Origin: an archaeon | GTDB taxonomy: Archaea; Iainarchaeota; Iainarchaeia; Iainarchaeales; JAAZKV01 | Reading direction: 5' to 3' | NCBI GenBank assembly: GCA_041659525.1 | Contig: JBAZYC010000001.1 | Location: forward strand, 525,731 to 589,730 | Length of the DNA: 64,000 nucleotides | Part shown: positions 1,848 through 62,378 of the stretch, in pieces | How the letters are laid out: each line of letters begins with the position of its first letter | Numbering within the stretch: the first letter of the stretch is position 1 | The notes under the pieces: generated by a model | Told to the model about the DNA's origin: nothing | The model's database searches: none | What the model saw: the letters and a program-made list of their open reading frames with translations, nothing else | Translations under genes and position numbers: made by a program

Positions 1848-3917
1848 TTAATATGTTTGAATGCTTTCTGCGCGCGTTGATTCATCTACATCTTTGTCTC
1901 TTGTTAGTAAATATAAATTACTTGAAGCAGCCATCTCAAGTTGCTTGTCATGAGTTATTACAAATATTTGTTCCACTAGTTTTGGTAGTTCTTCTCTAAG
2001 TATTTCACTTAGTTTTGCAACAGAGTTTGAATCAAGATTGTGAGTTGGTTCATCTAAAATCAGCATTGAAAGTTTCTTAGTCAAAACTAGTGAGAAAGCA
2101 ATTCTTATGCAAAGTGCAGCTGCACTTCTTTCTCCTCCTGATAGTACTCCTTCTACTCTTACCCATCCATTAGTTCGTGCTAGTACTTGTAAATCATACC
2201 CTTCATCCACAATACATAAACGCGCATCAGTAAAATCTTTGTAAGGATATAGTTGTCCCCAAATTTGGCTCATTGCTTGATTTATTGTTTGAAGCATTGA
2301 TTCTCGGAGTTCTACTTGGGTTGCAATTAAGCAATTTCCTAATATTCCCATTTTTTTAGCAGCTTCTTCAGAACGAAGAGTTTCTTTTTCAATTTCAATA
2401 ATATTTTTCTTTATTTGGACAATTTTTTGTAATGTAATTTCATAACTTTTCTTTAAATCTAAACTAGATTTGATTTTTACTTGAGCTACGCTTACAATAG
2501 ATTTTTTCTTATAAAGTTCGTCACGAATAGTTTCAAGTTTTTTCTTATCAAACCCATTTTCAGTTAATTGTTTTTTAATTTTTGGTAATTCTTCAACAAA
2601 AGAAGCAAGTTGTTTTTTCTTTTCTTCACTTAAAATTGCTTCTTTTTGCATTGCTTCAAATTTAAACAGTTCTCTACTTTTATTATCACTTTCTTTTTTA
2701 AAGTTTTCTTTTTCTTTTTCAACAAGTTCTATTTTTTGCTTTAGTTCTTTTTTACTTTTATCAAAAGCAACATATTGCGCGTTAAGTTTTTCTAGTTTTT
2801 CAGTTAGTTCTTTTGTTAAATGATTTTTGTGATTTTCATCAAGTATTTGTTTGCAAGTAGGGCAAGTTCCTTTTAGAGAGGAAATTCCTTTTTCTTCCTG
2901 AGCAATTTTTTGTTTCTCATATTCAATTACTCTGAGTTCTTCACTATTTTTCTTGAGTTCAAGATCAATTGTTTTATATTCCTTCTCTGCGTTCGCAAGT
3001 TTTTCTTTTAGCGTTTCAACTTCTTTTTTTCCTTTTTCAATTTCTAATAGAACTTCTTTTAATGAAATTTTGTCACTTTTAGAAATATCCTCTTTTAATC
3101 CTTCAATTCTTGAATTAACTTTTACAACTAACTCTTCAAGTGTTTTATTTTGTTTTTCTTTTTCATTAAGCTCTAAGTATTCTTTCTCAACACCTGCTAA
3201 TGATTTTGTTGTTTCTTCAATTTCTATTTCCAGTTTTTTTATTTGATTTTCTTCTTCAACTATTTGTTTGTGTAATTTTTCTTCTTCATGGCTTTTGAGA
3301 GTTTCTTTTTGTTGATTAATAAAATCATTTCTTTGCTTATTCGCCTTCACTAGTTCGTTTTGTACTACTACTGCATTTTTTCTTGCAGTTTCGTATTTCT
3401 CGATTTCAAGTAGTTCATCGAATTTTCTTTTTCTTTCAGCAGGAGAGAGTTTTAAGAAAAAATCTAATTCGTTTTGTTCAGAGTAAACCGCTCTACTAAA
3501 TAGTTCATAATTTAATCCAAGGATTTGTTCTACTTTTTCATTAACATCTTTTTGTTTTGGCCCAGCAATTAATCGGCCCGCACCCGCATTAAGGGTGTCT
3601 GATTCGTACATTTTTGCTTCGTTTGTTCCGTCAAGTTTTATTATTCGTTCTACTTTGTAATTTTTTTCATTTTGGTCAAAAGTAATTATTGTTTCAGCTT
3701 TGTTTTCTTGATTAGGTTTGTTCATTATTATTTCAGCAAGTGAAACACTTCTGTTTTTTAGTGATGGAAAAGTTCCAAATAGCGAATAAGAAATTGCGTT
3801 TACAATAGAACTCTTTCCCGCCCCCATTACTCCAACAATTACATTAGTCCCTTTTCCAAACTCGAGTGTAGTTTCTTTGTGAGTTCTCCAGTTTCTTAGA
3901 GTAAGAGAGTTTATCAT
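1848..3917 (-). CDS. rad50: Rad50-type SMC-like DNA repair ATPase
   Basis: Walker A is GVMGAGKSS. A long K/E-rich coiled coil has a central zinc hook CPTC (GTCPTCKQ). The signature is LSGGERSAAAL, Walker B is LILDEPTHNLD, and the H-loop is ITHD. Confidence 0.85.
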   Translation of the reverse strand: MINSLTLRNWRTHKETTLEFGKGTNVIVGVMGAGKSSIVNAISYSLFGTFPSLKNRSVSLAEIIMNKPNQENKAETIITFDQNEKNYKVERIIKLDGTNEAKMYESDTLNAGAGRLIAGPKQKDVNEKVEQILGLNYELFSRAVYSEQNELDFFLKLSPAERKRKFDELLEIEKYETARKNAVVVQNELVKANKQRNDFINQQKETLKSHEEEKLHKQIVEEENQIKKLEIEIEETTKSLAGVEKEYLELNEKEKQNKTLEELVVKVNSRIEGLKEDISKSDKISLKEVLLEIEKGKKEVETLKEKLANAEKEYKTIDLELKKNSEELRVIEYEKQKIAQEEKGISSLKGTCPTCKQILDENHKNHLTKELTEKLEKLNAQYVAFDKSKKELKQKIELVEKEKENFKKESDNKSRELFKFEAMQKEAILSEEKKKQLASFVEELPKIKKQLTENGFDKKKLETIRDELYKKKSIVSVAQVKIKSSLDLKKSYEITLQKIVQIKKNIIEIEKETLRSEEAAKKMGILGNCLIATQVELRESMLQTINQAMSQIWGQLYPYKDFTDARLCIVDEGYDLQVLARTNGWVRVEGVLSGGERSAAALCIRIAFSLVLTKKLSMLILDEPTHNLDSNSVAKLSEILREELPKLVEQIFVITHDKQLEMAASSNLYLLTRDKDVDESTRAESIQTY

Positions 3918-4078: not shown

Positions 4079-4320
4079 ATTTCTACTTCTGCTTGATTAA
4101 TTAGTGGTACTGCGTTTACTGCTGCTTCAAGGTTTGACATTGCCCCGTCTGTTTTGTCAGGGATAACAAAGCCTACTCTAATTACTTCTATTCCAAAACC
4201 AATTGGTTCTCTTTTTAGGTCTTTAAAGTCGCCTACTGTTATTGCGCGTAGTGATTTTTCTACAGCATCTAAGTTTTCTGGGTCAGTGAATACTTTGAAT
4301 ATTACCATTACTTTTCCCAT
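4060..4320 (-). CDS. ef1b: Translation elongation factor aEF-1 beta
   Basis: The 86-aa product MGKVMVIFKVFTDPENLD...REPIGFGIEVIRVGFVIPDK...VEMATLIS fits the aEF-1beta (EF1_GNE) family in length and pattern. Confidence 0.85.
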   Translation of the reverse strand: MGKVMVIFKVFTDPENLDAVEKSLRAITVGDFKDLKREPIGFGIEVIRVGFVIPDKTDGAMSNLEAAVNAVPLINQAEVEMATLIS

Positions 4321-4345
4321 TTTTTATTCACCTAGAAAATTAGTT

Positions 4346-4501
4346 TTAGGGTCCAACGAATCCGCATTCTTTGCAAGTGTATTCTTTTGATACTTGTTTG
4401 CAGTGTTCGCATCTAACAATAGTGCTTTTGCCGCAATTAGGGCATTTAAATTCAACGTGGTTGTTTGTAACAGTTTTGTTGCAGGATGTACATGTCTTCA
4501 T
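4346..4501 (-). CDS. Small Zn-ribbon protein (four CxxC pairs), the usual archaeal partner of EF-1beta
   Basis: This is a hand-found 51-aa ORF below the track's size cutoff: MKTCTSCNKTVTNNHVEFKCPNCGKSTIVRCEHCKQVSKEYTCKECGFVGP. GGTGAG SD lies 5 nt upstream. It sits directly upstream of ef1b, as for COG2888-type Zn-ribbon proteins. Confidence 0.7.
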   Translation of the reverse strand: MKTCTSCNKTVTNNHVEFKCPNCGKSTIVRCEHCKQVSKEYTCKECGFVGP

Positions 4502-4618
4502 TAGTCTCACCAATTAAATTATTTCTCTTGTAGAACCTTTTTAAACGTTCCCCAAAAGCCCAAATTTTGTTTTCACCAAAGCTTTTATTCTTTGGTTAGA
4601 AATCTCAAGAAAATCCTC

Positions 4619-4780
4619 GCCACCCCCGCTTTTATTGAATTTTTTCTTTGGACTCTGCCTTTCTCGGCTTAAACCTTTCCCCTGAGCCCAAGGCTCAAGG
4701 GTCGCCTGTTGGCTAAAGGATTTAATGCCCCCAAAAGCAGCGGAGCCGTCCATGAAAAAATTCTTTTTTGCGGAGGTGGC
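4619..4780 (+). promoter_or_regulatory. Extended imperfect hairpin (copy 1), a candidate SD-sequestering leader or structured RNA; strand uncertain
   Basis: Nested stems are GCCACCCCCGC/GCGGAGGTGGC, GAATTTTTTC/GAAAAAATTC, TGGAC/GTCCA, CTGCCTTT/AAAAGCAG, GGC/GCC and TTAAACCTTT/AAAGGaTTTAA. The apex is a mini-hairpin plus an unpaired TCGCCTGTTGGCT. The 3' basal arm contains GGAGGTG 6 nt before ATG 4785. A second copy lies at 59579-59725. Confidence 0.6.
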
Positions 4781-4784
4781 TTTA

Positions 4785-4934
4785 ATGGATTTTTCTTTAG
4801 ATATTGATTTCCCAAAACCAAATCAGGAAGAAATAAAATTGGTAAAATGGATTGCTAAAAACAATCCTGAAGATTTAGATTCAAGAGAACTTTGGGTTCT
4901 TGAACAAACTTTGGAAGGTGATGAAGATGATTGA
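4785..4934 (+). CDS. Small acidic protein of unknown function (49 aa), first gene of the homing-endonuclease cassette
   Basis: The product is MDFSLDIDFPKPNQEEIKLVKWIAKNNPEDLDSRELWVLEQTLEGDEDD. A perfect SD (GGAGGTG) lies 6 nt upstream. The peptide is conserved in copy 2 (..KPSKEEILLVKRIARSNPDDLDSRELWVLEQAIEGDEDD), including conservative substitutions. Confidence 0.6.
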   Translation: MDFSLDIDFPKPNQEEIKLVKWIAKNNPEDLDSRELWVLEQTLEGDEDD

Positions 4935-5847
4935 ATCATCGCCGGCATGGCACTTCCAAATAGATTATAAATCTTCAAAAGAGGGTTCTATAATGGAACC
5001 TTTTTTTTCAAAAGAAATGACTCCTGATCTAGCAGAAATCTGTGGCATCCATGCAGGAGATGGGCATTTAAGAAAACGAGACAATGTAAGACGTCTGCTT
5101 TGTTTAGATGGTAGTGTTGATGAAAAAGAATACTATGATACTCATGTTGTTCCGTTGTTTGAAAGAACATTTGGTATAAAAGTTAAACCAAGATTTTTTC
5201 CCAGCAGACACACTTATGGATTTTCAGTTAGTAATAGAAAAGTTTGTGGTCTCATCCATTCCCTTGGTTTTCCTTATGGTAAAAAAACAGTTTCTGTGAA
5301 AGTACCTGAAGTAATTTTACAGTCGAATGATTTGGGAGTAATTTATAGGTTTATTAGAGGTGTATTTGATACAGACGGTACAGTTTGTTTTAGACGAAGA
5401 AAAAGACTTAGGGGTAAAAGCGAAAACGCTAATAGACATACATATCCTCGGATTTTATTGGATGTATGCTCTAAAGATTTATGTTTTGGCTTAGGTGAGT
5501 TGTTACTAAAAACAGGCGTGTTTAGGTTTAATATTTCATCCCAAAGAGCAAAAGGAAATAGAAAAAAGAAATATAAACTATGTATAGCTGGCGATAAAAA
5601 CTTGTTATTATGGGTGCATAACATAGGTTTCAAAAACAATGTGAAACATAATCGAATTTTAATTTGGGATAAATTTGGCTTTAACCCGCCCAAGCTAACA
5701 CTTAACCACCAGTTGGAAATTTTGTCAGGTAAAATTGATCCAAATATTTTTTACAAAGACGGAGAGTTTTATCATGAGCGAGAAGAATCTGTAATAGCGA
5801 GAAACAAGCAATTGTTACGAAAAATGATTGAGGTGAGTGACACCTAA
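4921..5847 (+). CDS. LAGLIDADG homing endonuclease, double-motif, free-standing
   Basis: The two LAGLIDADG motifs are LAEICGIHAGDGHL and IYRFIRGVFDTDGTV. The start ATG (4921 or 4927) overlaps the stop of the small ORF (..GGTGATGAAGATGATTGA), with GGTGAT acting as SD. Confidence 0.85.
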   Translation: MKMIESSPAWHFQIDYKSSKEGSIMEPFFSKEMTPDLAEICGIHAGDGHLRKRDNVRRLLCLDGSVDEKEYYDTHVVPLFERTFGIKVKPRFFPSRHTYGFSVSNRKVCGLIHSLGFPYGKKTVSVKVPEVILQSNDLGVIYRFIRGVFDTDGTVCFRRRKRLRGKSENANRHTYPRILLDVCSKDLCFGLGELLLKTGVFRFNISSQRAKGNRKKKYKLCIAGDKNLLLWVHNIGFKNNVKHNRILIWDKFGFNPPKLTLNHQLEILSGKIDPNIFYKDGEFYHEREESVIARNKQLLRKMIEVSDT

Positions 5848-5883
5848 ACATTAAAAACTAAATGTGGCTTTAATTACATTAGT

Positions 5884-5970
5884 GGCTCTGTGTGCCAATG
5901 GATACGCGACAAGACTTCGGTTGTGAAAAGAAGAAATCTTGGGATGGGGGTTCGATTCCCTCCAGAGCCG
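5884..5970 (+). tRNA. tRNA-Arg (anticodon UCG) with a 15-nt intron after position 37
   Basis: The hand fold has acceptor GGCTCTG/CAGAGCC and D arm TGCC-AATGGATA-CGCG. The anticodon stem is CAAGA/TCTTG with loop CT-TCG-G, followed by the intron at 5921-5935 and then A. The T arm is GGGGG-TTCGATT-CCCTC and the discriminator is G. The mature length is 72 nt with no encoded CCA. Confidence 0.8.
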
Positions 5971-5992
5971 TTTATTTTATTTTTAATCTGTT

Positions 5993-6559
5993 TTAAGGAG
6001 CTCTCGTTTTCAACAAATTTTTGTTAATTTTCTTTCCGTTTAGTTTTACAATTTTCCCAGGTACTCCAACTACGGTGCAATTTGATGGAACATTGTTCAT
6101 AATGATAAAAGTTTCAGCTCCAATTTTGACATTGTTTCCAACAGTAATTGGTCCAAGGAGGGTTGCTGCAACTCCAACTAAAACATTGTTTCCTAAAGTT
6201 GGGTGTCTTTTTCCTTTGTGTTTTCCTGTTCCTCCTAGAGTAACATTTTGAAAGAGAGTACAATCATTTCCAATTATTGTAGTTTCTCCAATAACTACTC
6301 CCACTCCGTGATCAATAAAAAATCTTTCTCCTATTTCTGCTAAAGGGTGTATTTCTATTCCTGTAACTGTTTTTGATAAAGTCATTACAAATCTGGGAAA
6401 AACAGGTACTCCTATTTTTGCTAATGGATGCATAAACCTGTAAGTGATTATTGTCCAAAGAGGGGTGTGACAAAGAAGTATTTCTAAATAACTTTTTGCA
6501 GCAGGATCATTTTGTTTAACAACTTTAATATCTTGAATTATTTTTTTAATAAATCCCAT
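5993..6559 (-). CDS. cysE: Serine O-acetyltransferase
   Basis: DPAAKSYLEILL..P.LWTIITYRF...GIEIHPLAEIGERFFIDHGVGVVIGETTIIGNDCTLFQNVTLGGTG is the classic CysE N-terminal helical region plus hexapeptide repeats. Confidence 0.85.
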   Translation of the reverse strand: MGFIKKIIQDIKVVKQNDPAAKSYLEILLCHTPLWTIITYRFMHPLAKIGVPVFPRFVMTLSKTVTGIEIHPLAEIGERFFIDHGVGVVIGETTIIGNDCTLFQNVTLGGTGKHKGKRHPTLGNNVLVGVAATLLGPITVGNNVKIGAETFIIMNNVPSNCTVVGVPGKIVKLNGKKINKNLLKTRAP

Positions 6560-56366: not shown

Positions 56367-57326
56367 GTGGTGAGATTTGTGGTTGAAGCTAAAACTGTTG
56401 ATAAAAAAATAAGTGTTTCAGAGAAACAAACTAAGAAAGTAATTAGAAAAGAACTTGTTTCTGCAAAAAAACAAGTAAAGAAAGAGAAAGCAAAGAACGT
56501 TAAGCAAGATGCTGATATTGAAATGCTAAAAAATGAACTTGCTAAGTTAAAGAAAAAGAAAGTTAAATCAGGCCACGTTTCAGAGTATAACTTTTTTATT
56601 AGAAAACAAATTAAATCCGGACTCACTTTTACTCAAGCAGCAAAACAATGGAGTAAATACAAAAGACTTCAACTAATGGATAAACGAAGACCAAGTGCAT
56701 ATAATCAATTCATTGGTTCTCAAATGCGTTTAGGAAAAACTTGGACTCAAGCAGTTGCTCTTTGGAAATTAGCTAAAGCGGGTAAACTCGGAAAGAAAGG
56801 AAGTACAAGAACAGTAACAAACACAGTTTACAAAACTCGAACAATTAAATCTAAACCAACTATAAAGTATAGAACTAGAACGATTACTTCTAAACCAAAG
56901 ATAAAATACAGAACAAGAACAATTACTTCAAAACCGAAGATAAAGTATAGAACTAGAACAAATACTATTATTAAAACTAGAACTATTAAATCAAAACCAG
57001 TTAAGAGAGCAAGAACTGTTAGAAGAATAGTTTCTTCTTCTCAAGGGTTTGATGTAAATTCTTTAAGAGAAATAATTAGATCTACTCAAAGTTCTTCTAT
57101 TTCAAAAACTGATTTGAGGGAAGCGATGAATCCAGATTCAGAGGAAATTGCTTTCAAAATAGTTCAAACCTATTTCATTGAAGTAGCAAGATTAGGATTC
57201 AAGAGACAATTGACTCTTGATGAAATAATTAACGCCTACTTTTATGCTCTAGCAAGAGTAAAAAGACAAAACGTTGAAATGAGTGAAGTAGCGGATGCAG
57301 TAAGAGAATCAGGAATGAAAAAGTAA
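56367..57326 (+). CDS. Basic repeat protein with two YABBY/HMG-like S.YN.FI motifs and 13-aa tandem repeats; putative DNA-binding
   Basis: It has HVSEYNFFIRKQIKSGLTFTQAAKQWSKY and RRPSAYNQFIGSQMRLGKTWTQAVALWKLA, followed by (KYRTRTITSKPKI) repeats. The start is uncertain, with GTG at 56367 or 56379. Confidence 0.5.
   Translation: MVRFVVEAKTVDKKISVSEKQTKKVIRKELVSAKKQVKKEKAKNVKQDADIEMLKNELAKLKKKKVKSGHVSEYNFFIRKQIKSGLTFTQAAKQWSKYKRLQLMDKRRPSAYNQFIGSQMRLGKTWTQAVALWKLAKAGKLGKKGSTRTVTNTVYKTRTIKSKPTIKYRTRTITSKPKIKYRTRTITSKPKIKYRTRTNTIIKTRTIKSKPVKRARTVRRIVSSSQGFDVNSLREIIRSTQSSSISKTDLREAMNPDSEEIAFKIVQTYFIEVARLGFKRQLTLDEIINAYFYALARVKRQNVEMSEVADAVRESGMKK
56829..57006 (+). repeat. In-frame 39-nt tandem repeat (about 4.5 units) encoding K(Y/T)RTRTI(T/K)SKP(K/T)I
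   Basis: Units start near 56832, 56865, 56904, 56943 and 56973. The two central units encode identical peptides but differ at many synonymous sites. Confidence 0.8.
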
Positions 57327-57349
57327 AAGTAATTTTTAGAGGTGTGAAT

Positions 57350-57694
57350 ATGAATGATGAAGAAGTAGCATTTAGAATAGTAAGATTGTACTTTGAAGAA
57401 ATCGCAAGAACTGGTTTCAAAAGACAACTCGATTTAGACCAAATGGTTAACGCATATTTTTACACTCTAAAGCAATTAAAGAACAAAGATAAAGCAATGA
57501 AAAGTATTTCCGAAAAAATAATTAGAGAAGAAAAAGAAATTACTTCAAAAGAATTTCCGGGATCAGTAAAAACAACTACTGTTACCACTGAATCAATCCC
57601 TGTAGTAAAAGAAGTAACCACTACCACTACAGTTGAATCAAATTCTTCAAAACCCAAGGTAAAAACAGTTTCAGAGATTATTGAAGAAAAGTAA
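57350..57694 (+). CDS. Hypothetical protein, paralogue of the C-terminal domain of 56367-57326
   Basis: EEVAFRIVRLYFEEIARTGFKRQLDLDQMVNAYFYTLKQLK compares with EEIAFKIVQTYFIEVARLGFKRQLTLDEIINAYFYALARVK. GAGGTG SD lies 5 nt upstream of the ATG. Confidence 0.55.
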   Translation: MNDEEVAFRIVRLYFEEIARTGFKRQLDLDQMVNAYFYTLKQLKNKDKAMKSISEKIIREEKEITSKEFPGSVKTTTVTTESIPVVKEVTTTTTVESNSSKPKVKTVSEIIEEK

Positions 57695-58359: not shown

Positions 58360-59454
58360 CTAAAATGGAATATCAGGGAACTCTTCCGAACTTGAGTATA
58401 GTTGTTCTATGTCTCCATTAGCTTTTCTTATTAATGTACGCGTAAGTTTGTGCCCTTCAACAAATTTTTTAATATCAGTTAAGAAAGTGGATGGTATTTT
58501 TCCATTAGATCTTTGAGTTTCCTTTTCCAGTACTTCTAAGAATTTTGGAACATAAACCGAGGTGGGACTTCTATAAAAAGTTTTTACTTCCTCAAGATAA
58601 CTCATAAATTCTCTATATTGTTCAGGTTTAAGTTTTATTATTCTTAGTGGTTTTACAGCATATCCTTTAGCAGGGTCTATTCTAAACATTAATTTTCTAA
58701 AAACTTTTCTAACTTTTGGAAGGGAATAAACCATTCTTCGTTCATGCATTTCTGGTCCTTGTTGTGCTAGTGCTTTTAATGTATCTCCAAGTGGAAGTGA
58801 AAAAGGATTTTTTGTCGCAGTGGTAAATATTTTTTGTAATTGTTTAAATTCAATTCTTTGTCTTTCTAATTGTCGTTCATTGTTTCTTTGATTTATTTCT
58901 TCCCACTTTGCATTTTCTTTTTGCAATTTAGCCTCTCTAATAGCAGCTTTTTCTTTTCTAATAGCTTTTTTTCTTTCCTGTATTCGCTCTTGTCTTCTTA
59001 GTAATTCATTTTCAGTTGCAATTCTGGGTTGAAGAGTTCTTCTTGGATCCATTGATTGTAAATTCAAACTTGTTTTCCTATCAGGAATTAGTTCATGATA
59101 ATTTCTGCGAGGATTGTCAAGTCTTAGTGCTGCTCTTTCAGGGTGTCCATGAGGGAGTTGTTCACTTCTTACATTTTTTTTATAATATTCAAAAAATTTT
59201 AATTTAAATCTAGATTGAGGAACTCCTGAGTGTAATGTTTGCCAAAAGGCTAAACGTGCTTCGTGTAAATTATTTGCAAATTCTTCTTTTCGATTACCAT
59301 ACTTAAAAACAGCTTCTTTTAGTAAATTTGAATTTCGTTGGCATAAATCATCAAATGCTCTGCTTCCTTTTGTTCCGCCCTTTCGAGATAAGCGTCTTAG
59401 TGGTATTTCTTCTTTAGGAGGTCGAGCCTTAAATCTAGAAAATCGAGTTGGCAT
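58360..59454 (-). CDS. Hypothetical Arg/Gln-rich basic protein
   Basis: This is a 364-aa ORF with a central charged coiled-coil (RRQERIQERKKAIRKEKAAIREAKLQKE). I recognise no motif. Confidence 0.45.
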   Translation of the reverse strand: MPTRFSRFKARPPKEEIPLRRLSRKGGTKGSRAFDDLCQRNSNLLKEAVFKYGNRKEEFANNLHEARLAFWQTLHSGVPQSRFKLKFFEYYKKNVRSEQLPHGHPERAALRLDNPRRNYHELIPDRKTSLNLQSMDPRRTLQPRIATENELLRRQERIQERKKAIRKEKAAIREAKLQKENAKWEEINQRNNERQLERQRIEFKQLQKIFTTATKNPFSLPLGDTLKALAQQGPEMHERRMVYSLPKVRKVFRKLMFRIDPAKGYAVKPLRIIKLKPEQYREFMSYLEEVKTFYRSPTSVYVPKFLEVLEKETQRSNGKIPSTFLTDIKKFVEGHKLTRTLIRKANGDIEQLYSSSEEFPDIPF

Positions 59455-59578
59455 ATATTAGTTATTCAATGGGAACATTTAATACTTTCTTAAAGAGTTT
59501 TTCAATTATCTTTTGTTAAACATTAGTTCTATTACATCCCCATATTTGAGTAAGTGATATTTTTTAATTAAAACTATT

Positions 59579-59725
59579 GCCACCTCCGCTTTGTCGAATT
59601 TTTTCGTTGGACTCTGCTTTTCTCGACTTAAACCTTTTCCCTTTAGGTCGCCTGTTGGCTAAAGGTTTAATGTCTCCAAAAGCAGCGGGGCCGTCCATGA
59701 AAAAATTCGTTTTTTGCGGAGGTGG
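59579..59725 (+). promoter_or_regulatory. Extended imperfect hairpin (copy 2), a candidate SD-sequestering leader or structured RNA; strand uncertain
   Basis: Nested stems are GCCACCTCCGC/GCGGAGGTGGC, CGAATTTTTTC/GAAAAAATTCG, TGGAC/GTCCA, CTGCTTTT/AAAAGCAG, GAC/GTC and TTAAACCTTT/AAAGGTTTAA. The apex is CCT-TT-AGG plus TCGCCTGTTGGCT. Confidence 0.6.
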
Positions 59726-59729
59726 CTCA

Positions 59730-59874
59730 AATGATTTTTTTAAATAATTTAAGTAAACCCTCAAAAGAGGAAATATTGTTAGTAAAAAGAATTGCAAGAT
59801 CCAATCCAGATGATTTGGATTCAAGAGAACTTTGGGTTCTTGAACAAGCTATTGAAGGTGATGAAGATGATTGA
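59730..59874 (+). pseudogene. Small acidic ORF of cassette copy 2, out of frame with its SD-served ATG because of a T8 run
   Basis: ATG 59730 (GGAGGTG 6 nt upstream) reads MIFFK*. The conserved peptide frame (..LNNLSKPSKEEILLVKRIARSNPDDLDSRELWVLEQAIEGDEDD*) is +1 relative to it. Removing one T from T8 (59734-59741) joins them. Confidence 0.6.
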
Positions 59875-61180
59875 TTCATCGCCGGCAAAGCACTTCCAAA
59901 TTGATTATAAATCTTCAAAAGAGATTTATTCTATGGATTTTGATTTATTCAAGTTAGCTTATTTTGAGAACATCAATAAAGTGGTTTATTTTAAGGGCAC
60001 TAAGTGCAGAGAGTTGTTTACAGAGCTTATAACTGAAGTTTGTACAAAAAAGAATTGTTTACGTCAACATTTAGCAAAAGAGCTTTCGGGGACTTATAAT
60101 TCGAATTTATCAACAATGCAATATTTTATTTCTTCCAAAGAATACTTTCCCATTTATTTAACTTCAAAAATTATTAGTAAACTAAGCGAAGAAAGACAGG
60201 AGTATTATAAAAATGCTTTCAATAAATCAGTAGAATATTTCAAATGTGGTACTTCAAAAGAATGGACTATTTTTCCAAAAAAATTATCTGCGGAACTAGC
60301 TTGGCTTTGCGGAGCGATTGCTGCAGATGGTTGGATTACTAAAGAATCTTTTTCAGGTTATGAGCGAATAGGAATAGCTGATTTTCATAAAAAAGCATTA
60401 CTAAAAGCCAGTCTTTTTTTTATGAAATGTTTTGGTCATGAACCCGTTGTAAAAAGGCACAACAAATTACAATGTTGGCAAATAGTTTTTCGTTCTAAAG
60501 CAATCACACAATTTTTTACCACCTATCTTGGTTTTCATTATGGGGTAAAAGTGTATGACATTTGTGAGCCAAAGATTTTGAAAAATTCAAAGTATCGCTT
60601 GGATTATGCAAGTGGGGTTATGAGCTTTGATGGATCAGTTGCGATGGATGGGGTTGTGTCTTTAGGTTGTGCAAGCGAAAAACTTGCTCAAGATATTCAC
60701 ACGATCCTTTTGGAAAATGGATTAAAAACTAGATTAACTAAAAAGAAATCTGAAAAGCAAAATTTATTTTTTGTAAAATCCGAAGGTTTGTTGCATAATG
60801 TGGATTCAAGTAAGTGGATTTCGTTGTTTGGGGTTGATATTGAAAAAGGTCAGAGGCTTGATGCACTTGTGAATGGATTTAAGGATACTCCTCTTTCTGA
60901 GCAAGATGCCTTACTTCGTCTTAAACACTTTGTAAATTATCCATCAAAAAATGAGTGTCCAATTTATCGCATTTTCTTTGTGTTGAAAAATAAAAGTTCA
61001 ATAAAGAGGCAGGATTTACTTAAATTAACTAAACTTCCGCATGTAACTTTTTACAAATATGTGTGGGTGTTAAGGAAAGCAAATATTGTCTCTTGTTATA
61101 CTGGTCAATTTTGGAGGGGATTTGAAAACACATACAAATTCAATTATAATATTGAAGAGTGGCGTGTTCCTAGTCTTTGA
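59861..61180 (+). CDS. LAGLIDADG homing endonuclease, double-motif, with an extra N-terminal region of about 130 aa
   Basis: The motifs are LAWLCGAIAADGWI and RLDYASGVMSFDGSV. The N-terminal 22 aa, MKMIDSSPAKHFQIDYKSSKEI, are shared with copy 1. The start is ATG 59861 or 59867. Confidence 0.8.
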   Translation: MKMIDSSPAKHFQIDYKSSKEIYSMDFDLFKLAYFENINKVVYFKGTKCRELFTELITEVCTKKNCLRQHLAKELSGTYNSNLSTMQYFISSKEYFPIYLTSKIISKLSEERQEYYKNAFNKSVEYFKCGTSKEWTIFPKKLSAELAWLCGAIAADGWITKESFSGYERIGIADFHKKALLKASLFFMKCFGHEPVVKRHNKLQCWQIVFRSKAITQFFTTYLGFHYGVKVYDICEPKILKNSKYRLDYASGVMSFDGSVAMDGVVSLGCASEKLAQDIHTILLENGLKTRLTKKKSEKQNLFFVKSEGLLHNVDSSKWISLFGVDIEKGQRLDALVNGFKDTPLSEQDALLRLKHFVNYPSKNECPIYRIFFVLKNKSSIKRQDLLKLTKLPHVTFYKYVWVLRKANIVSCYTGQFWRGFENTYKFNYNIEEWRVPSL

Positions 61181-62378
61181 ATAATATTTCAATTACGTCA
61201 CCATATTTTAATGGGTGATCGCGTCCAATTACTTGTTTAGTCTTCACATCAATAGCCCTGATGAAGCCTTTGCCCATATCAGTGTGTAGTGCAAATGCGA
61301 AATCAATTGCTTTTGAACCTGTTGGTAAAAGTAGACAATCAGGTATATATGCCCCATTTTTATCTTGGAGTCCTTTTGTTCCGCCAGGAAATACTGGAAA
61401 ATATCCTAGTAATTTGAATATTGCTGTATCAAGGCATTCTTGTACTCCAGTTGAGCCAAATTTTTCAAGTACATTGTGTTGTATTGTTTCTATTCCTAGT
61501 TTTTGTTTTTCGTTTAAGGTTCCTAAGATTTCAAAGTGGTTCCATCCGGGGTAGTATTTCATTATTCCTGCTTTTGTTGCTTTTCGTAAGGATAGTTCGC
61601 TTGCTGCGGAGCAAGGGATTATGTGAGTGTTAGGAAATGTTTCTTTCATTCTTAAAACATTTTTTTCTCCACTAGGTAAATCACATTTGTTTGCTGCAAT
61701 TATAATTGGTTTTGACCATACTCTGCATTTGTGTGCGAAAGTTCTTTTTTCTTCTTCAGTCCAAGTGTTCAAAAGTTTTTCATCTATTTTCATTTCCCTC
61801 ATTGCTTTTTCTATGTGCCAAGGAAGTATTTTTACTCCTGCAAGTGCTTGTGCAATTAGCATTACTTTTTTTCCAAAATCTTTTTCCTGTACTCTTGAGG
61901 TTTTCAGCCAATTGTTTTCAATAATTTTTAAGAACCATAATTCTATTTCTTCTTCAAGGAATTTTACATCTTCAATTGGATCGTGACTTCCTTCAGGGCA
62001 TTCTTTTCCTTCAGCATCAGTGCTTCCACTTGCATCCACTACATGGATTAGTGCATCAGCTTGACTTAAATCGTTTAAGAATTTATTTCCCAGTCCCTTT
62101 CCTTCGTTTGCTCCTGGCACAAGTCCAGCAACATCAATTAGTTCTACAGGAACATATCTAATTGGATTTTTTGGATCCTCATTAACCAAGAATCCGTGTC
62201 TAGGGTTACTTACAACATTAAAAAATTTTCCAGCATCTTCCACTCTAACAAATCCTATTCCTTTGTTTGGGTTAATTGTAGTAAAAGGATAACTAGCAAT
62301 TGCAACATCAATTAGAGTAGCACTTGAAAAGAAAGTACTTTTTCCAGAGGATGGTTTTCCAACTATTCCTATTTGCAT
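61170..62378 (-). CDS. Obg-like GTPase/ATPase (YchF/DRG family) with C-terminal TGS domain
   Basis: G1 is GKPSSGKST, G3 is DVAGLV and G4 is NKCD. The C-terminal TGS-like region has VIGRDHPLKYGDVIEI. ATG 62378 is the start. Confidence 0.8.
   Translation of the reverse strand: MQIGIVGKPSSGKSTFFSSATLIDVAIASYPFTTINPNKGIGFVRVEDAGKFFNVVSNPRHGFLVNEDPKNPIRYVPVELIDVAGLVPGANEGKGLGNKFLNDLSQADALIHVVDASGSTDAEGKECPEGSHDPIEDVKFLEEEIELWFLKIIENNWLKTSRVQEKDFGKKVMLIAQALAGVKILPWHIEKAMREMKIDEKLLNTWTEEEKRTFAHKCRVWSKPIIIAANKCDLPSGEKNVLRMKETFPNTHIIPCSAASELSLRKATKAGIMKYYPGWNHFEILGTLNEKQKLGIETIQHNVLEKFGSTGVQECLDTAIFKLLGYFPVFPGGTKGLQDKNGAYIPDCLLLPTGSKAIDFAFALHTDMGKGFIRAIDVKTKQVIGRDHPLKYGDVIEILFKD

What the first reader, a model, noticed from the sequence alone, without database searches (positions are those of the whole stretch)
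4785..4983. Conserved small acidic ORF and a 106-nt near-identical block spanning the junction with the nuclease gene
Both cassettes encode the same peptide of about 45-49 aa, ..EEI.LVK.IA..NP(E/D)DLDSRELWVLEQ..EGDEDD. Its stop overlaps the nuclease start (GGTGATGAAGATGATTGA; GGTGAT is an SD for the ATG), which implies translational coupling.

From 4878 to 4983 (copy 2: 59818-59923) I count only 7 mismatches in 106 gap-free nt. The segment just upstream is conserved mainly at peptide level, and the nuclease bodies downstream are barely alignable.

The block also contains two conserved small hairpins: TTCAAgaGAAC-TTTGG-GTTCTTGAA, and GATGAT-TGA-ATCATC around the stop. This much nucleotide conservation suggests a functional DNA or RNA site, such as a homing target remnant, a recombination joint or a translational control element, or else recent gene conversion. 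The first 22 aa of both nucleases (MKMI(E/D)SSPA.HFQIDYKSSKE) belong to this shared module.
Basis: seen in the sequence. Interest (0 to 1): 0.7.

Follow-up and report, generated by a model that had tools for sequence, protein, structure and literature searches.

The report
Shared leader of LAGLIDADG nuclease cassettes
The flagged stretch encodes a real small acidic protein plus the overlapping start of a LAGLIDADG homing-endonuclease gene, and it belongs to a conserved, apparently undescribed "leader" that Iainarchaeota archaea place in front of many such nuclease genes; the two copies are near-identical here because of coding constraint and gene conversion, not because of a special DNA site.

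Summary
Two cassettes (4619-5847 and 59579-61180) share a small acidic ORF (49 and 47 aa), an overlapping nuclease start and a block with 99 of 106 bases identical.

The shared unit is larger than reported. It has four parts:
- a ~160-nt covarying rod hairpin whose basal helix pairs with the small ORF's Shine-Dalgarno sequence;
- the small ORF;
- a second hairpin around the stop/start overlap;
- a disordered 22-24-aa N-terminal extension of the nuclease.

I found this module at 69 distinct loci, nearly all in Iainarchaeota (DPANN) genomes, several per genome and nearly always before LAGLIDADG genes. The peptide is a stand-alone family: 41 representatives among 1.84 billion proteins, all 92 aa or shorter. 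It has clear codon periodicity and no known homologue.

Family-wide, the block is no better conserved than the hairpin arms. Its 93% identity here reflects homogenisation between paralogues: locus-specific sites are 21:0 upstream, 24:1 downstream and 1:2 inside the block.

Cassette 2 is an insertion. Close relatives lack it, and a remnant of the host GTPase's 3' end lies beside it.

Most likely this is a two-step translational gate on mobile homing-endonuclease genes, analogous to T-even phage endonuclease control. The strand on which the large hairpin acts is unresolved.

The parts
4619..4780 (+). Leader hairpin, copy 1. It is a rod-like imperfect palindrome whose basal helix is GCCACCCCCGC (4619-4629) paired with GCGGAGGTGGC (4770-4780).
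   Evidence: MFE is -71.3 kcal/mol, z = -5.8. Family covariation: 88% of cells paired and 25 pairs with compensatory changes, with 0 of 500 shuffles reaching this. No Rfam match.
4772..4778 (+). Extended Shine-Dalgarno sequence GGAGGTG of the small ORF, 6 nt before its ATG, lying inside the basal helix.
   Evidence: Read directly from the sequence. GGAGG is invariant in 72 family members.
4785..4934 (+). Small acidic ORF, 49 aa (the finding).
   Evidence: 57 clusters of homologues, all 40-86 aa. Codon periodicity is clear. AlphaFold2 predicts two helices, pLDDT 74.6.
4878..4983 (.). The 106-nt near-identical block, interpreted as a homogenised (gene-converted) tract spanning the end of the small ORF, the junction and the nuclease N-terminal extension.
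   Evidence: 99/106 identical to 59818-59923. In a four-sequence comparison the locus-specific signal is erased only in this block.
4917..4943 (+). Junction hairpin. The stem GGUGAUGA/UCAUCGCC sequesters the nuclease's Shine-Dalgarno sequence. The loop holds AUG 4927 and the small-ORF stop at 4932-4934.
   Evidence: -10.8 kcal/mol, z = -2.7. Equivalent stems with different sequences occur in relatives. Junction windows differ from control windows at p = 3e-18 for MFE and p = 1e-7 for z.
4921..4992 (+). N-terminal extension of the nuclease (motif SPAxHFQxDYK), ending at the conserved internal Met codon 4993-4995.
   Evidence: Predicted disordered: pLDDT about 50 for residues 1-30. Absent from homologues in other phyla, which start at the internal Met position. 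In frame with the leader ATG in fused variants L036/L032.
4921..5847 (+). LAGLIDADG endonuclease gene 1 (308 aa counted from ATG 4921; the start may instead be ATG 4927).
   Evidence: Pfam LAGLIDADG_3. Model pLDDT 90.8. Foldseek hits to LAGLIDADG homing endonucleases, E = 5e-11. The Asp of the first motif is invariant and that of the second nearly invariant.
59579..59726 (+). Leader hairpin, copy 2. The basal helix is a perfect 11 bp.
   Evidence: MFE is -72.3 kcal/mol, z = -9.6.
59731..59874 (+). Small acidic ORF, copy 2 (47 aa).
59818..59923 (.). The 106-nt block, copy 2.
59857..59883 (+). Junction hairpin, copy 2.
   Evidence: -13.0 kcal/mol, z = -3.6.
59861..61180 (+). LAGLIDADG endonuclease gene 2 (439 aa). 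Its 3' end overlaps the stop of the convergent GTPase gene.
   Evidence: Pfam LAGLIDADG_3, E = 5e-7. Match to PI-PfuI, E = 1.6e-4.
59506..59556 (-). Remnant of the host GTPase gene's last 16 codons plus stop (HLLKYGDVIELMFNKR*), 22 nt from the hairpin. It marks the left edge of the cassette-2 insertion.
   Evidence: The same remnant is present in L001.
61170..61217 (-). Functional duplicate of that 3' end (HPLKYGDVIEILFKD*), closing the live GTPase gene at the right edge of the insertion.
   Evidence: Nine close relatives have a single 3' end and no cassette.
5884..5970 (+). tRNA-Arg(UCG) with a 16-18-nt intron, directly after cassette 1. It is a conserved neighbour of this nuclease type.

Best explanation
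The finding is the middle of a conserved 5' leader module that Iainarchaeota attach to LAGLIDADG homing-endonuclease genes.

Reading 5' to 3', the module has four parts:
1. A ~160-nt rod-shaped hairpin. Its basal helix pairs an anti-SD-like strand (CACCUCC) with the extended Shine-Dalgarno sequence (GGAGGUG) of the small ORF.
2. A 43-56-aa, usually acidic, two-helix protein gene.
3. A short hairpin whose stem holds the nuclease's own SD (GGUGAU) and whose loop holds the overlapping stop and start codons.
4. A disordered 22-24-aa extension fused to the ancestral nuclease start.

Proposed mechanism (inferred). Nuclease synthesis is gated twice. The leader hairpin limits initiation on the small ORF. 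The nuclease is then made only when a ribosome finishing the small ORF melts the junction hairpin and re-initiates. This would keep a potentially genotoxic, selfish nuclease at a low level.

The cassettes are, or were, mobile insertions into the 3' ends of host genes.

The 93% identity of the 106-nt block between the two copies in this genome has two causes: protein-coding constraint in two overlapping frames, and gene conversion between paralogous modules. It is not a dedicated DNA site.
For: **Shown by tool results**
- The module recurs at 69 distinct loci, almost all in Iainarchaeota MAGs, with several copies per genome.
- The large hairpin's pairing is under selection. 88.1% of cells are paired against 82.4% in shuffles. 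222 cells carry compensatory changes against 79 +/- 7 in shuffles (0 of 500 reach the observed value) and 19-90 in slid controls.
- The SD lies in the basal helix in at least 90% of members.
- The small ORF is coding: positions 1-2 of conserved codons are nearly invariant and position 3 varies.
- The peptide family is stand-alone. Only 41 proteins match among 1.84 billion representatives, all 25-92 aa.
- Stop/start overlap is found in 48 of the 49 cassettes with both ORFs called at the junction (L025 is the exception). It occurs in both the +1 and +2 frames, which argues for re-initiation and against a programmed frameshift.
- Junction windows are far more structured than control windows from the same genes: -11.5 versus -5.1 kcal/mol, p = 3e-18; mean z -1.73 versus -0.20, p = 1e-7. 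The stem sequences differ between relatives, for example GGUGUUGUU/AACAACACC and GAGAGCGAUU/AAUCGCUCUC.
- The nuclease has a LAGLIDADG fold with a disordered N-terminal tail. Homologues in other phyla lack the tail, the small ORF and the hairpin.
- Conversion: locus-specific sites are 21:0 upstream, 24:1 downstream and 1:2 inside the block. W1-W2 identity is 93%, against 85% between cassette 2 and its ortholog L001 and 73% between cassette 1 and its ortholog L040.
- Insertion: 9 loci with close GTPase relatives (78-87% aa identity) and at least 2 kb of downstream sequence lack the cassette, and 2 loci carry it. A remnant copy of the host gene's 3' end flanks the cassette in W2 and L001, and likewise for the Nre gene in L007 and L014.

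**Precedent**
- T-even phage homing-endonuclease genes use hairpins that sequester the ribosome-binding site, and overlapping stop/start codons (PMC2988022).
Against: - No transcript data exist, so it is not shown that the 5' arm of the large hairpin is on the same RNA as the small ORF.
- Strand tests are ambiguous or lean to the other strand. Wobble-compatible mismatches number 61 on the + strand and 119 on the - strand. An independent count gave 107 versus 115. The - strand folds more stably in 61 of 72 members.
- A T/A-rich box 6-18 nt upstream of the hairpin could be a promoter whose transcripts would lack the anti-SD arm.
- The small ORF is missing in a few cassettes (L036, L079), so coupling is not obligatory.
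- A conserved internal Met could allow independent initiation.
- The amino-acid conservation of the peptide (invariant W, R, E, L) implies a function of its own that this model does not explain.
- The conversion inference rests on four sequences, and I could not examine the DNA of the genome's third copy.
Confidence: 0.6

Rival explanations
1. The large palindrome works on the opposite strand or as DNA. It could be a stand-alone ~170-nt antisense RNA covering the small ORF's ribosome-binding site (as IS10 RNA-OUT or type I antitoxin RNAs do), a terminator for host read-through, or a cruciform or protein-binding site at the end of the mobile unit. In that case the small ORF and junction would be regulated in trans, not by a cis fold-back.
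For: - The minus strand has the lower MFE in 61 of 72 members.
- A.C mismatches, which are G.U on the minus strand, outnumber G.U by 119 to 61.
- The invariant internal loop reads GGA/GAG (purine-rich, tandem G.A-like) on the minus strand.
- On the minus strand an oligo-T run follows the hairpin.
- The hairpin sits 22 nt from the insertion boundary of cassette 2.
- In contig L016 the element is broken at the hairpin apex.
Against: - Wobble counts are dominated by a few poorly aligned columns, and a second method gave 107 versus 115.
- The element is strongly oriented with respect to the ORFs: nhmmer scores 128 bits on the + strand and 31-35 on the - strand.
- It keeps a fixed 6-8-nt spacing to the ATG. 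The SD is the only invariant part of the 3' arm, which is what a cis translational role predicts.
Confidence: 0.25
2. The 106-nt block is a dedicated nucleic-acid site, such as the nuclease's homing target, a recombination joint or a binding site, and is conserved as nucleotides.
For: - 93% identity between paralogues whose flanks are 61% and about 35% identical.
- The 3' edge of the block coincides with the boundary between the module and the ancestral nuclease start.
- CCGGCA is invariant among close family members.
- The junction hairpin lies within the block.
Against: - Family-wide identity of the block (0.70) is no higher than that of the hairpin arms (0.74-0.77).
- Synonymous sites vary.
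- Identity is 85% between cassette 2 and its ortholog (L001) and 73% between cassette 1 and its ortholog (L040), below the 93% between the two copies in this genome. That points to homogenisation, not constraint.
- The identified target remnants are host-gene 3' ends elsewhere.
Confidence: 0.1
3. The small acidic protein is the functional point of the arrangement. It would be a dedicated partner of the nuclease (inhibitor or DNA mimic, immunity- or antitoxin-like, or chaperone) made in stoichiometric excess by coupling, perhaps binding the conserved N-terminal extension.
For: - Strong amino-acid conservation, with invariant L31 D32 S33 R34 E35 W37 L39.
- Net charge about -10 (read from the sequence).
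- It always lies immediately upstream of, and overlaps, a nuclease gene.
- It co-occurs with the nuclease's conserved, disordered N-terminal motif. Homologues that lack the small ORF also lack that motif.
Against: - No homology to any known inhibitor, antitoxin or defence protein in Pfam, NCBIfam, PADLOC, PHROGs, PDB or Foldseek.
- A different, only weakly acidic peptide family (MSFSQKLSETKGNPF...) occupies the same slot in many cassettes, and a few cassettes have none.
- No interaction evidence.
Confidence: 0.3
4. The small ORF and the nuclease are one gene split by a sequencing or assembly frameshift, or joined by programmed ribosomal frameshifting.
For: The ORFs overlap in different frames, and the nuclease frame stays open upstream of its ATG.
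Against: - The same split is seen in both copies here and at 49 independent loci from many assemblies.
- The frame offset is +1 in some cassettes and +2 in others, with overlaps from 1 to 20 nt.
- No protein among 1.84 billion representatives carries the peptide as a domain of a longer chain.
- Variants without the split have the small ORF deleted, not fused in frame.
Confidence: 0.03

Closest known systems
Translational control of T-even phage homing-endonuclease genes (I-TevI/II/III, segB, mobE; review PMC2988022)
   Same: - A stable hairpin sequesters the endonuclease's ribosome-binding site.
- Start codons overlap the stop of an upstream ORF (e.g. UAAUGA), which suggests coupling that limits output.
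- The purpose is to restrain a selfish nuclease.
   Different: - The phage systems are bacterial; the hairpins are short and not homologous; the upstream ORF is a host gene.
- Here the hairpin is a ~160-nt conserved covarying rod, and the upstream ORF is a dedicated conserved micro-gene.
- There is a second junction hairpin.
- The whole leader is shared by many unrelated LAGLIDADG bodies across an archaeal phylum.
Free-standing LAGLIDADG homing-endonuclease genes (e.g. I-DmoI, I-Tsp061I, PI-PfuI endonuclease domain)
   Same: - Double-motif LAGLIDADG fold with conserved catalytic Asp residues.
- Presence/absence polymorphism at a conserved host site.
   Different: - Not in an intron or intein.
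- Carries an appended disordered N-terminal tail and the leader module.
- The W1-type body is conserved at 40-45% identity across DPANN phyla, which is unusually stable for a selfish gene.
Leader-ORF (uORF) translational coupling in prokaryotes (e.g. the iraD leader, PMC5574718; reinitiation review PMC5972666, both listed)
   Same: A short upstream ORF whose termination overlaps the downstream start, with the downstream SD and start held in secondary structure.
   Different: In those systems the leader peptides are usually not conserved as proteins. Here the peptide sequence itself is conserved.
Fold-back inhibition in IS10/IS50 transposase mRNAs, and homing-endonuclease insertions in fungal mitochondrial genes that duplicate the host C-terminus (both recalled from my own knowledge and not checked here)
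   Same: - An end-proximal inverted repeat occludes the ribosome-binding site on read-through transcripts.
- Insertion into a gene's 3' coding end, with a replacement copy of the displaced end.
   Different: Different element classes and domains of life. There is no transposase here. The resemblance is a lead, not a tested relation.

Membership tests
LAGLIDADG homing endonuclease (the downstream gene) | Two LAGLIDADG helices, each ending in a conserved acidic residue | tested here: met
   Motifs ICGIHAGDG and IRGVFDTDG in W1; LCGAIAADG and ASGVMSFDG in W2. D47 is invariant and D152 at least 90% conserved in 65 homologues.
LAGLIDADG homing endonuclease (the downstream gene) | Alpha-beta-beta-alpha-beta-beta-alpha fold, repeated twice | tested here: met
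   AlphaFold2 pLDDT 90.8. The top 22 Foldseek hits are LAGLIDADG-fold proteins, nearly all homing endonucleases, with E down to 4.7e-11. Pfam LAGLIDADG_3 for W2 is above the curated cut-off; for W1 it is just below.
LAGLIDADG homing endonuclease (the downstream gene) | Mobile: present or absent at an otherwise conserved site | tested here: met
   For cassette 2, nine syntenic loci lack it and two carry it, and a host 3'-end remnant flanks it. A second case sits at the Nre gene. Not tested for cassette 1.
LAGLIDADG homing endonuclease (the downstream gene) | Site-specific cleavage of the empty allele | not testable with these tools
   Requires an enzyme assay.
Translationally coupled gene pair | Overlapping stop and start, with an SD inside the upstream ORF | tested here: met
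   48 of the 49 cassettes with both ORFs called at the junction overlap by 1-34 nt (L025 does not). GGUGAU-like purine tracts precede the start.
Translationally coupled gene pair | Downstream translation depends on upstream translation | not testable with these tools
   Inferred only, from the conserved junction hairpin.
Known RNA family (Rfam 15), for the leader hairpin | Covariance-model match | tested here: not met
   Nothing at gathering threshold over the window, and nothing relevant at E <= 10 over 4300-6200 on either strand.
Known protein family or toxin-antitoxin/defence partner, for the small peptide | Sequence or fold similarity to a described family | tested here: not met
   No hit in Pfam, NCBIfam, PADLOC, PHROGs or a PDB profile search. 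Best Foldseek E is 5.2.
Programmed ribosomal frameshift site | A fixed shift direction and slippery site conserved across homologues | tested here: not met
   Both +1 and +2 frame relations occur, with variable overlap lengths.

The most novel reading that the evidence does not exclude
The leader is a self-contained, phylum-specific control system and not merely a passive translational brake. On this reading, the ~160-nt covarying RNA (possibly acting from the antisense strand) and the conserved acidic micro-protein act together with the nuclease's appended N-terminal tail. The micro-protein might be an inhibitor or immunity factor, or an RNA-protein switch. The module would spread between unrelated LAGLIDADG genes by gene conversion. 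That would be the first dedicated regulatory or immunity partner described for LAGLIDADG enzymes.
Probability: 0.2. Interest if true: 0.8.

Novelty: new variant of a known kind. Interest (0 to 1): 0.58.

Why it matters
- Homing endonucleases are models for selfish-gene biology and are sources of genome-editing enzymes. How archaea restrain them is essentially unknown.
- This module offers three new things to work with. The first is a large RNA or DNA structure supported by covariation and absent from Rfam. The second is a conserved micro-protein family with no known relatives. The third is a natural example of one regulatory leader shared, and kept uniform by gene conversion, among very different nuclease genes in genomes of about 1 Mb.
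- The module also marks the boundaries of mobile insertions in DPANN genomes. That helps annotation: the small ORFs and the hairpin are currently unannotated or labelled 'hypothetical'.
- If the micro-protein modulates the nuclease, it would be a new handle for controlling LAGLIDADG meganucleases.

Tried and rejected
- **Rfam.** Gathering threshold, and E <= 10 on both strands: no family for either hairpin.
- **Protein databases for the peptide.** Pfam, NCBIfam, PADLOC, PHROGs, a PDB profile search and Foldseek gave nothing.
- **RNAalifold on the MAFFT alignment.** It returned only a 6-bp alternative pairing between the inner GCCUCC and the SD, because the tip is misaligned. I used a structure projected from one member instead.
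- **Strand assignment of the large hairpin by wobble counts.** Inconclusive.
Rejected as a conserved structure. It is a by-product of the Glu-Leu...Val-Leu codons.
- **Frameshift or split-gene reading.** Rejected.
- **Group I or archaeal bulge-helix-bulge intron reading.** Rejected. Nothing conserved lies downstream of the nucleases, and cassette 2's nuclease ends inside the convergent GTPase gene.
- **The hairpin as a giant tRNA intron, or enrichment of tRNA fragments next to it.** Fragments exist at some loci, but a strict T-arm motif is present in only 3 of 72 (background about 1%), and the fragments do not match the downstream tRNAs.
- **The third copy in this genome (P0004).** Its DNA could not be fetched.
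- **Literature.** Searches found no description of this module.
Full report
**1.

The window comes from a low-GC (32%) DPANN archaeon. NCBI labels the source contig 'MAG: archaeon', 985 kb.
- Two small ORFs, 4785-4934 (49 aa) and 59731-59874 (47 aa), are 70% identical.
- Each ends in TGA inside the start of a larger ORF carrying two LAGLIDADG motifs, at 4921-5847 and 59861-61180.
- The 106-nt block 4878-4983 versus 59818-59923 has 99 identical bases and no gaps.
- The nucleases share 20 of their first 26 residues and then fall to about 24% identity.
- No further copies exist in the window.

**2. The shared unit is larger than the finding**

Similarity begins about 165 nt upstream of the small ORF. 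That region folds into a rod-like hairpin at 4619-4780 and 59579-59726. MFE is about -71 and -72 kcal/mol, with z = -5.8 and -9.6.

Its basal helix pairs GCCACCYCCGC with GCGGAGGTGGC. The second strand contains the small ORF's extended Shine-Dalgarno sequence, GGAGGTG, 6 nt before the ATG. SD-like motifs precede about 30% of large ORFs in the window, against about 2% of random 15-nt windows, so this organism does use SD sequences. Rfam has no match on either strand.

**3. Distribution**

The peptide profile found 57 clusters, all 40-86 aa. An exhaustive profile search of 1.84 billion representative proteins found only 41 matches, all 25-92 aa, nearly always with the match at the C-terminal end of the protein. 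The peptide is therefore never a domain of a longer protein.

A degenerate pattern from the hairpin hit 64 places in species-representative genomes. These include Candidatus Iainarchaeum, Ca. Forterrea, AR10 and unnamed 'archaeon' MAGs, often 3-5 contigs per genome. A few bins carry bacterial or thaumarchaeal labels and are probably mis-binned.

Among 69 distinct loci:
- 49 have hairpin, small ORF and an overlapping large ORF.
- 2 have the small ORF deleted, with the leader ATG fused to the nuclease N-terminal motif (L036, L079).
- The remaining 18 have no large ORF called at the junction. Some are cut by contig ends, some have a broken large ORF, and seven carry a second, hydrophobic mini-ORF between the two.

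Small ORFs fall into related families (..PSKEEI..NPEDLDSRELWVLE..; ..TDRELWILxEFGGD) and one different family (MSFSQKLSETKGNPFSDGFSFDELLKNMK).

Large ORFs are mostly recognisable LAGLIDADG proteins. Five of ten sampled hit Pfam LAGLIDADG models, and three of the other five (L012, L014, L038) show the motif by eye.

**4. The large hairpin is under selection for pairing**

I projected the fold of one member onto the 72-sequence alignment and counted pairs.
- 88.1% of cells are paired, against 82.4% in column shuffles.
- 25 of 52 pairs show changes on both sides.
- 222 cells are compensatory, against 79 +/- 7 in shuffles (0 of 500 reach the observed value) and 19-90 when the 3' partners are slid.

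Two invariant 15-mers (TTTTCTCGGCTTAAA and TTTAATGCCTCCAAAA) flank an internal loop.

Which strand acts is unresolved.
- The minus strand folds more stably in 61 of 72 members.
- A.C mismatches outnumber G.U by 119 to 61 under this structure.
- A second method gave 115 versus 107, and isolated mismatches gave 16 versus 7.
- The element is nonetheless strictly oriented and spaced relative to the ATG.

**5. The small ORF is a real gene**

At conserved residues (P12, E16, E29, R34, E35, L36, L39, N41), codon positions 1-2 are nearly invariant and position 3 has diversity 0.3-0.8. AlphaFold2 predicts two helices, 14-26 and 33-45, with pLDDT 74.6. No sequence or fold relative was found.

**6. The junction carries a conserved hairpin**

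In W1 and W2, GGUGAUGA pairs with UCAUCGCC (4917-4943; 59857-59883). The energies are -10.8 and -13.0 kcal/mol. The stem contains the nuclease's SD. The loop contains AUG 4927 and the small-ORF stop.

Relatives have equivalent stems of quite different sequence, such as GGUGUUGUU/AACAACACC, GAGAGCGAUU/AAUCGCUCUC, GGGCUUCC/GGAAGCCC and GGUGAUGUC/GACAUCAC.

Across 49 cassettes, junction windows average -11.5 kcal/mol, against -5.1 for windows inside the same genes (p = 3e-18). Composition-controlled z averages -1.73 against -0.20 (p = 1e-7).

The large ORF starts before the small ORF's stop in 48 of 49 cassettes, by 1-34 nt, in either the +1 or the +2 frame. This fits termination-reinitiation and argues against a conserved frameshift. 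Relatives L010 and L076 keep only the second ATG, so 4927 / 59867 is the likelier start.

**7. The nuclease N-terminus belongs to the module**

Nuclease 1 models confidently as a double LAGLIDADG fold. pLDDT is 90.8, and Foldseek hits the TliVMA intein endonuclease, I-Tsp061I, PI-PfuI, PI-SceI and I-DmoI with E from 5e-11 to 1e-6. Residues 1-30 are disordered.

Its homologues in Woesearchaeota, Nanoarchaeota and Aenigmatarchaeota are 40-45% identical and 240-260 aa long. They begin at the position of W1's internal Met25 and have no hairpin or small ORF upstream.

The motif [ST]P/G..[FL]Q..[YF]K, followed about 10 residues later by Met, recurs across cassettes with unrelated bodies.

**8. Why the 106-nt block is so similar here**

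Family-wide, across 16 distinct cassettes, mean pairwise identity is:

| Segment | Identity |
|---|---|
| Hairpin arms | 0.74-0.77 |
| Small-ORF N-terminal part | 0.62 |
| 106-nt block | 0.70 |
| Nuclease body | 0.40 |

The block is therefore not special in general.

In this genome the picture differs:

| Pair | Hairpin | Small-ORF N-part | Block |
|---|---|---|---|
| W1-W2 (paralogues) | 77% | 61% | 93% |
| W2-L001 (orthologs) | 93% | 85% | 85% |
| W1-L040 (orthologs) | 68% | 52% | 73% |
| W1-L082 (close orthologs) | 93% | 95% | 91% |

In the quartet W1, L082, W2, L001, informative sites group by locus 21:0 upstream and 24:1 downstream. Inside the block the split is 1:2. The paralogue-specific signal has been erased over about 100 nt. 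This is the signature of gene conversion in this lineage, on top of dual-frame coding constraint and the junction stem.

**9. The cassettes are insertions**

I fetched loci encoding close relatives of the neighbouring Obg-like GTPase. Two (89% and 82% aa identity) carry cassette 2. Nine (78-87% identity, with at least 2 kb of downstream sequence) have no hairpin and join the GTPase directly to the genes found left of the cassette in the window.

In the window, 59506-59556 on the minus strand encodes HLLKYGDVIELMFNKR*. This is a remnant of the GTPase C-terminus, 22 nt from the hairpin. The live gene ends with a second copy at 61170-61217, HPLKYGDVIEILFKD*.

L001 has the same remnant. An independent cassette lineage (L007, L014) shows the same arrangement at the Nre gene.

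So the nuclease genes behave as homing-endonuclease insertions into the 3' coding ends of convergent host genes. Each brings a replacement 3' end, and the hairpin lies at the outer edge.

**10. Interpretation**

Shown:
- the anatomy of the module;
- its conservation;
- covariation in both hairpins;
- the coding status of the small ORF;
- the stand-alone nature of the peptide;
- homogenisation of the block;
- insertion polymorphism.

Inferred: the leader hairpin and the junction hairpin act on the mRNA as a two-step gate that limits nuclease synthesis.

The closest described parallel is the control of T-even phage homing-endonuclease genes by hairpins that sequester the ribosome-binding site and by overlapping stop/start codons (PMC2988022).

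Unexplained:
- why the peptide and the N-terminal tail are conserved as amino-acid sequences;
- which strand of the large hairpin is functional;
- where transcription starts. A T/A-rich box 6-18 nt upstream could be a promoter or, on the other strand, a terminator.

Literature searches found no description of this module.

Noticed in passing
window 5884-5970: A tRNA-Arg(UCG) with a 16-18-nt intron lies directly after nuclease 1; ARAGORN could not name its anticodon. The same nuclease type sits next to tRNA-Arg(UCG) in L082, L040 (ARAGORN calls it Glu) and L063, so the adjacency is conserved. The intron is present in only some of these.
   Followed up: partly
L004 ~3760-3800; L034, L037, L048, L063 just left of the hairpin: tRNA-gene fragments abut the left end of the leader hairpin. 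They are T-arm/acceptor or 5' halves that ARAGORN and Rfam do not detect as whole tRNAs. They do not match the tRNA downstream of the cassette. Enrichment is weak: a strict T-arm motif occurs in 3 of 72 loci, against a background of about 1%.
   Followed up: partly
L016 1-2040 versus L014/L015: One metagenome contig carries only the 3' half of the leader hairpin. The breakpoint is right before AATGCCTCC, and the small ORF and nuclease start are otherwise identical. It is either a recombination breakpoint at the hairpin apex or an assembly chimera.
   Followed up: no
L044, L046, L047, L050, L052, L061, L064 (between the small ORF and the nuclease): A second overlapping mini-ORF of about 45-50 aa lies between the first small ORF and the LAGLIDADG gene, giving a three-gene coupled chain. 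It encodes a hydrophobic, membrane-like peptide (e.g. MNLEQMTFPLFLLIISPIALEMVGFNWKSTE...).
   Followed up: no
window 4921-5847 and homologues P0121-P0172: The body of nuclease 1 is conserved at 40-45% identity across several DPANN phyla (Woese-, Nano-, Aenigmatarchaeota) as a stand-alone protein of about 250 aa with invariant catalytic residues. That is unusually stable for a selfish endonuclease and may indicate a domesticated host function.
   Followed up: partly
window 58360-59454 (- strand): A 364-aa ORF with no domain hit noted lies between the GTPase remnant and the next conserved gene. It is absent at this position from all eleven syntenic relatives compared, including those that carry the cassette. 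It is likely a further lineage-specific insertion.
   Followed up: no
window 56367-57326: This ORF has a tandem 39-nt repeat encoding a ...(Y/K)(K/R)TRTI(K/T)SKP... peptide motif repeated about 4 times (repeat family D3). The next ORF, 57344-57694, shares a similar C-terminal domain.
   Followed up: no
L021, L059, L061 (Falkowbacteria bin); L036, L044, L064 (Chloroflexi/Chloroflexota bins); L045, L071 (Thaumarchaeota bin): Contigs carrying the Iainarchaeota-type module sit in genome bins labelled as bacteria or Thaumarchaeota. These are probably mis-binned contigs in public MAGs.
   Followed up: no
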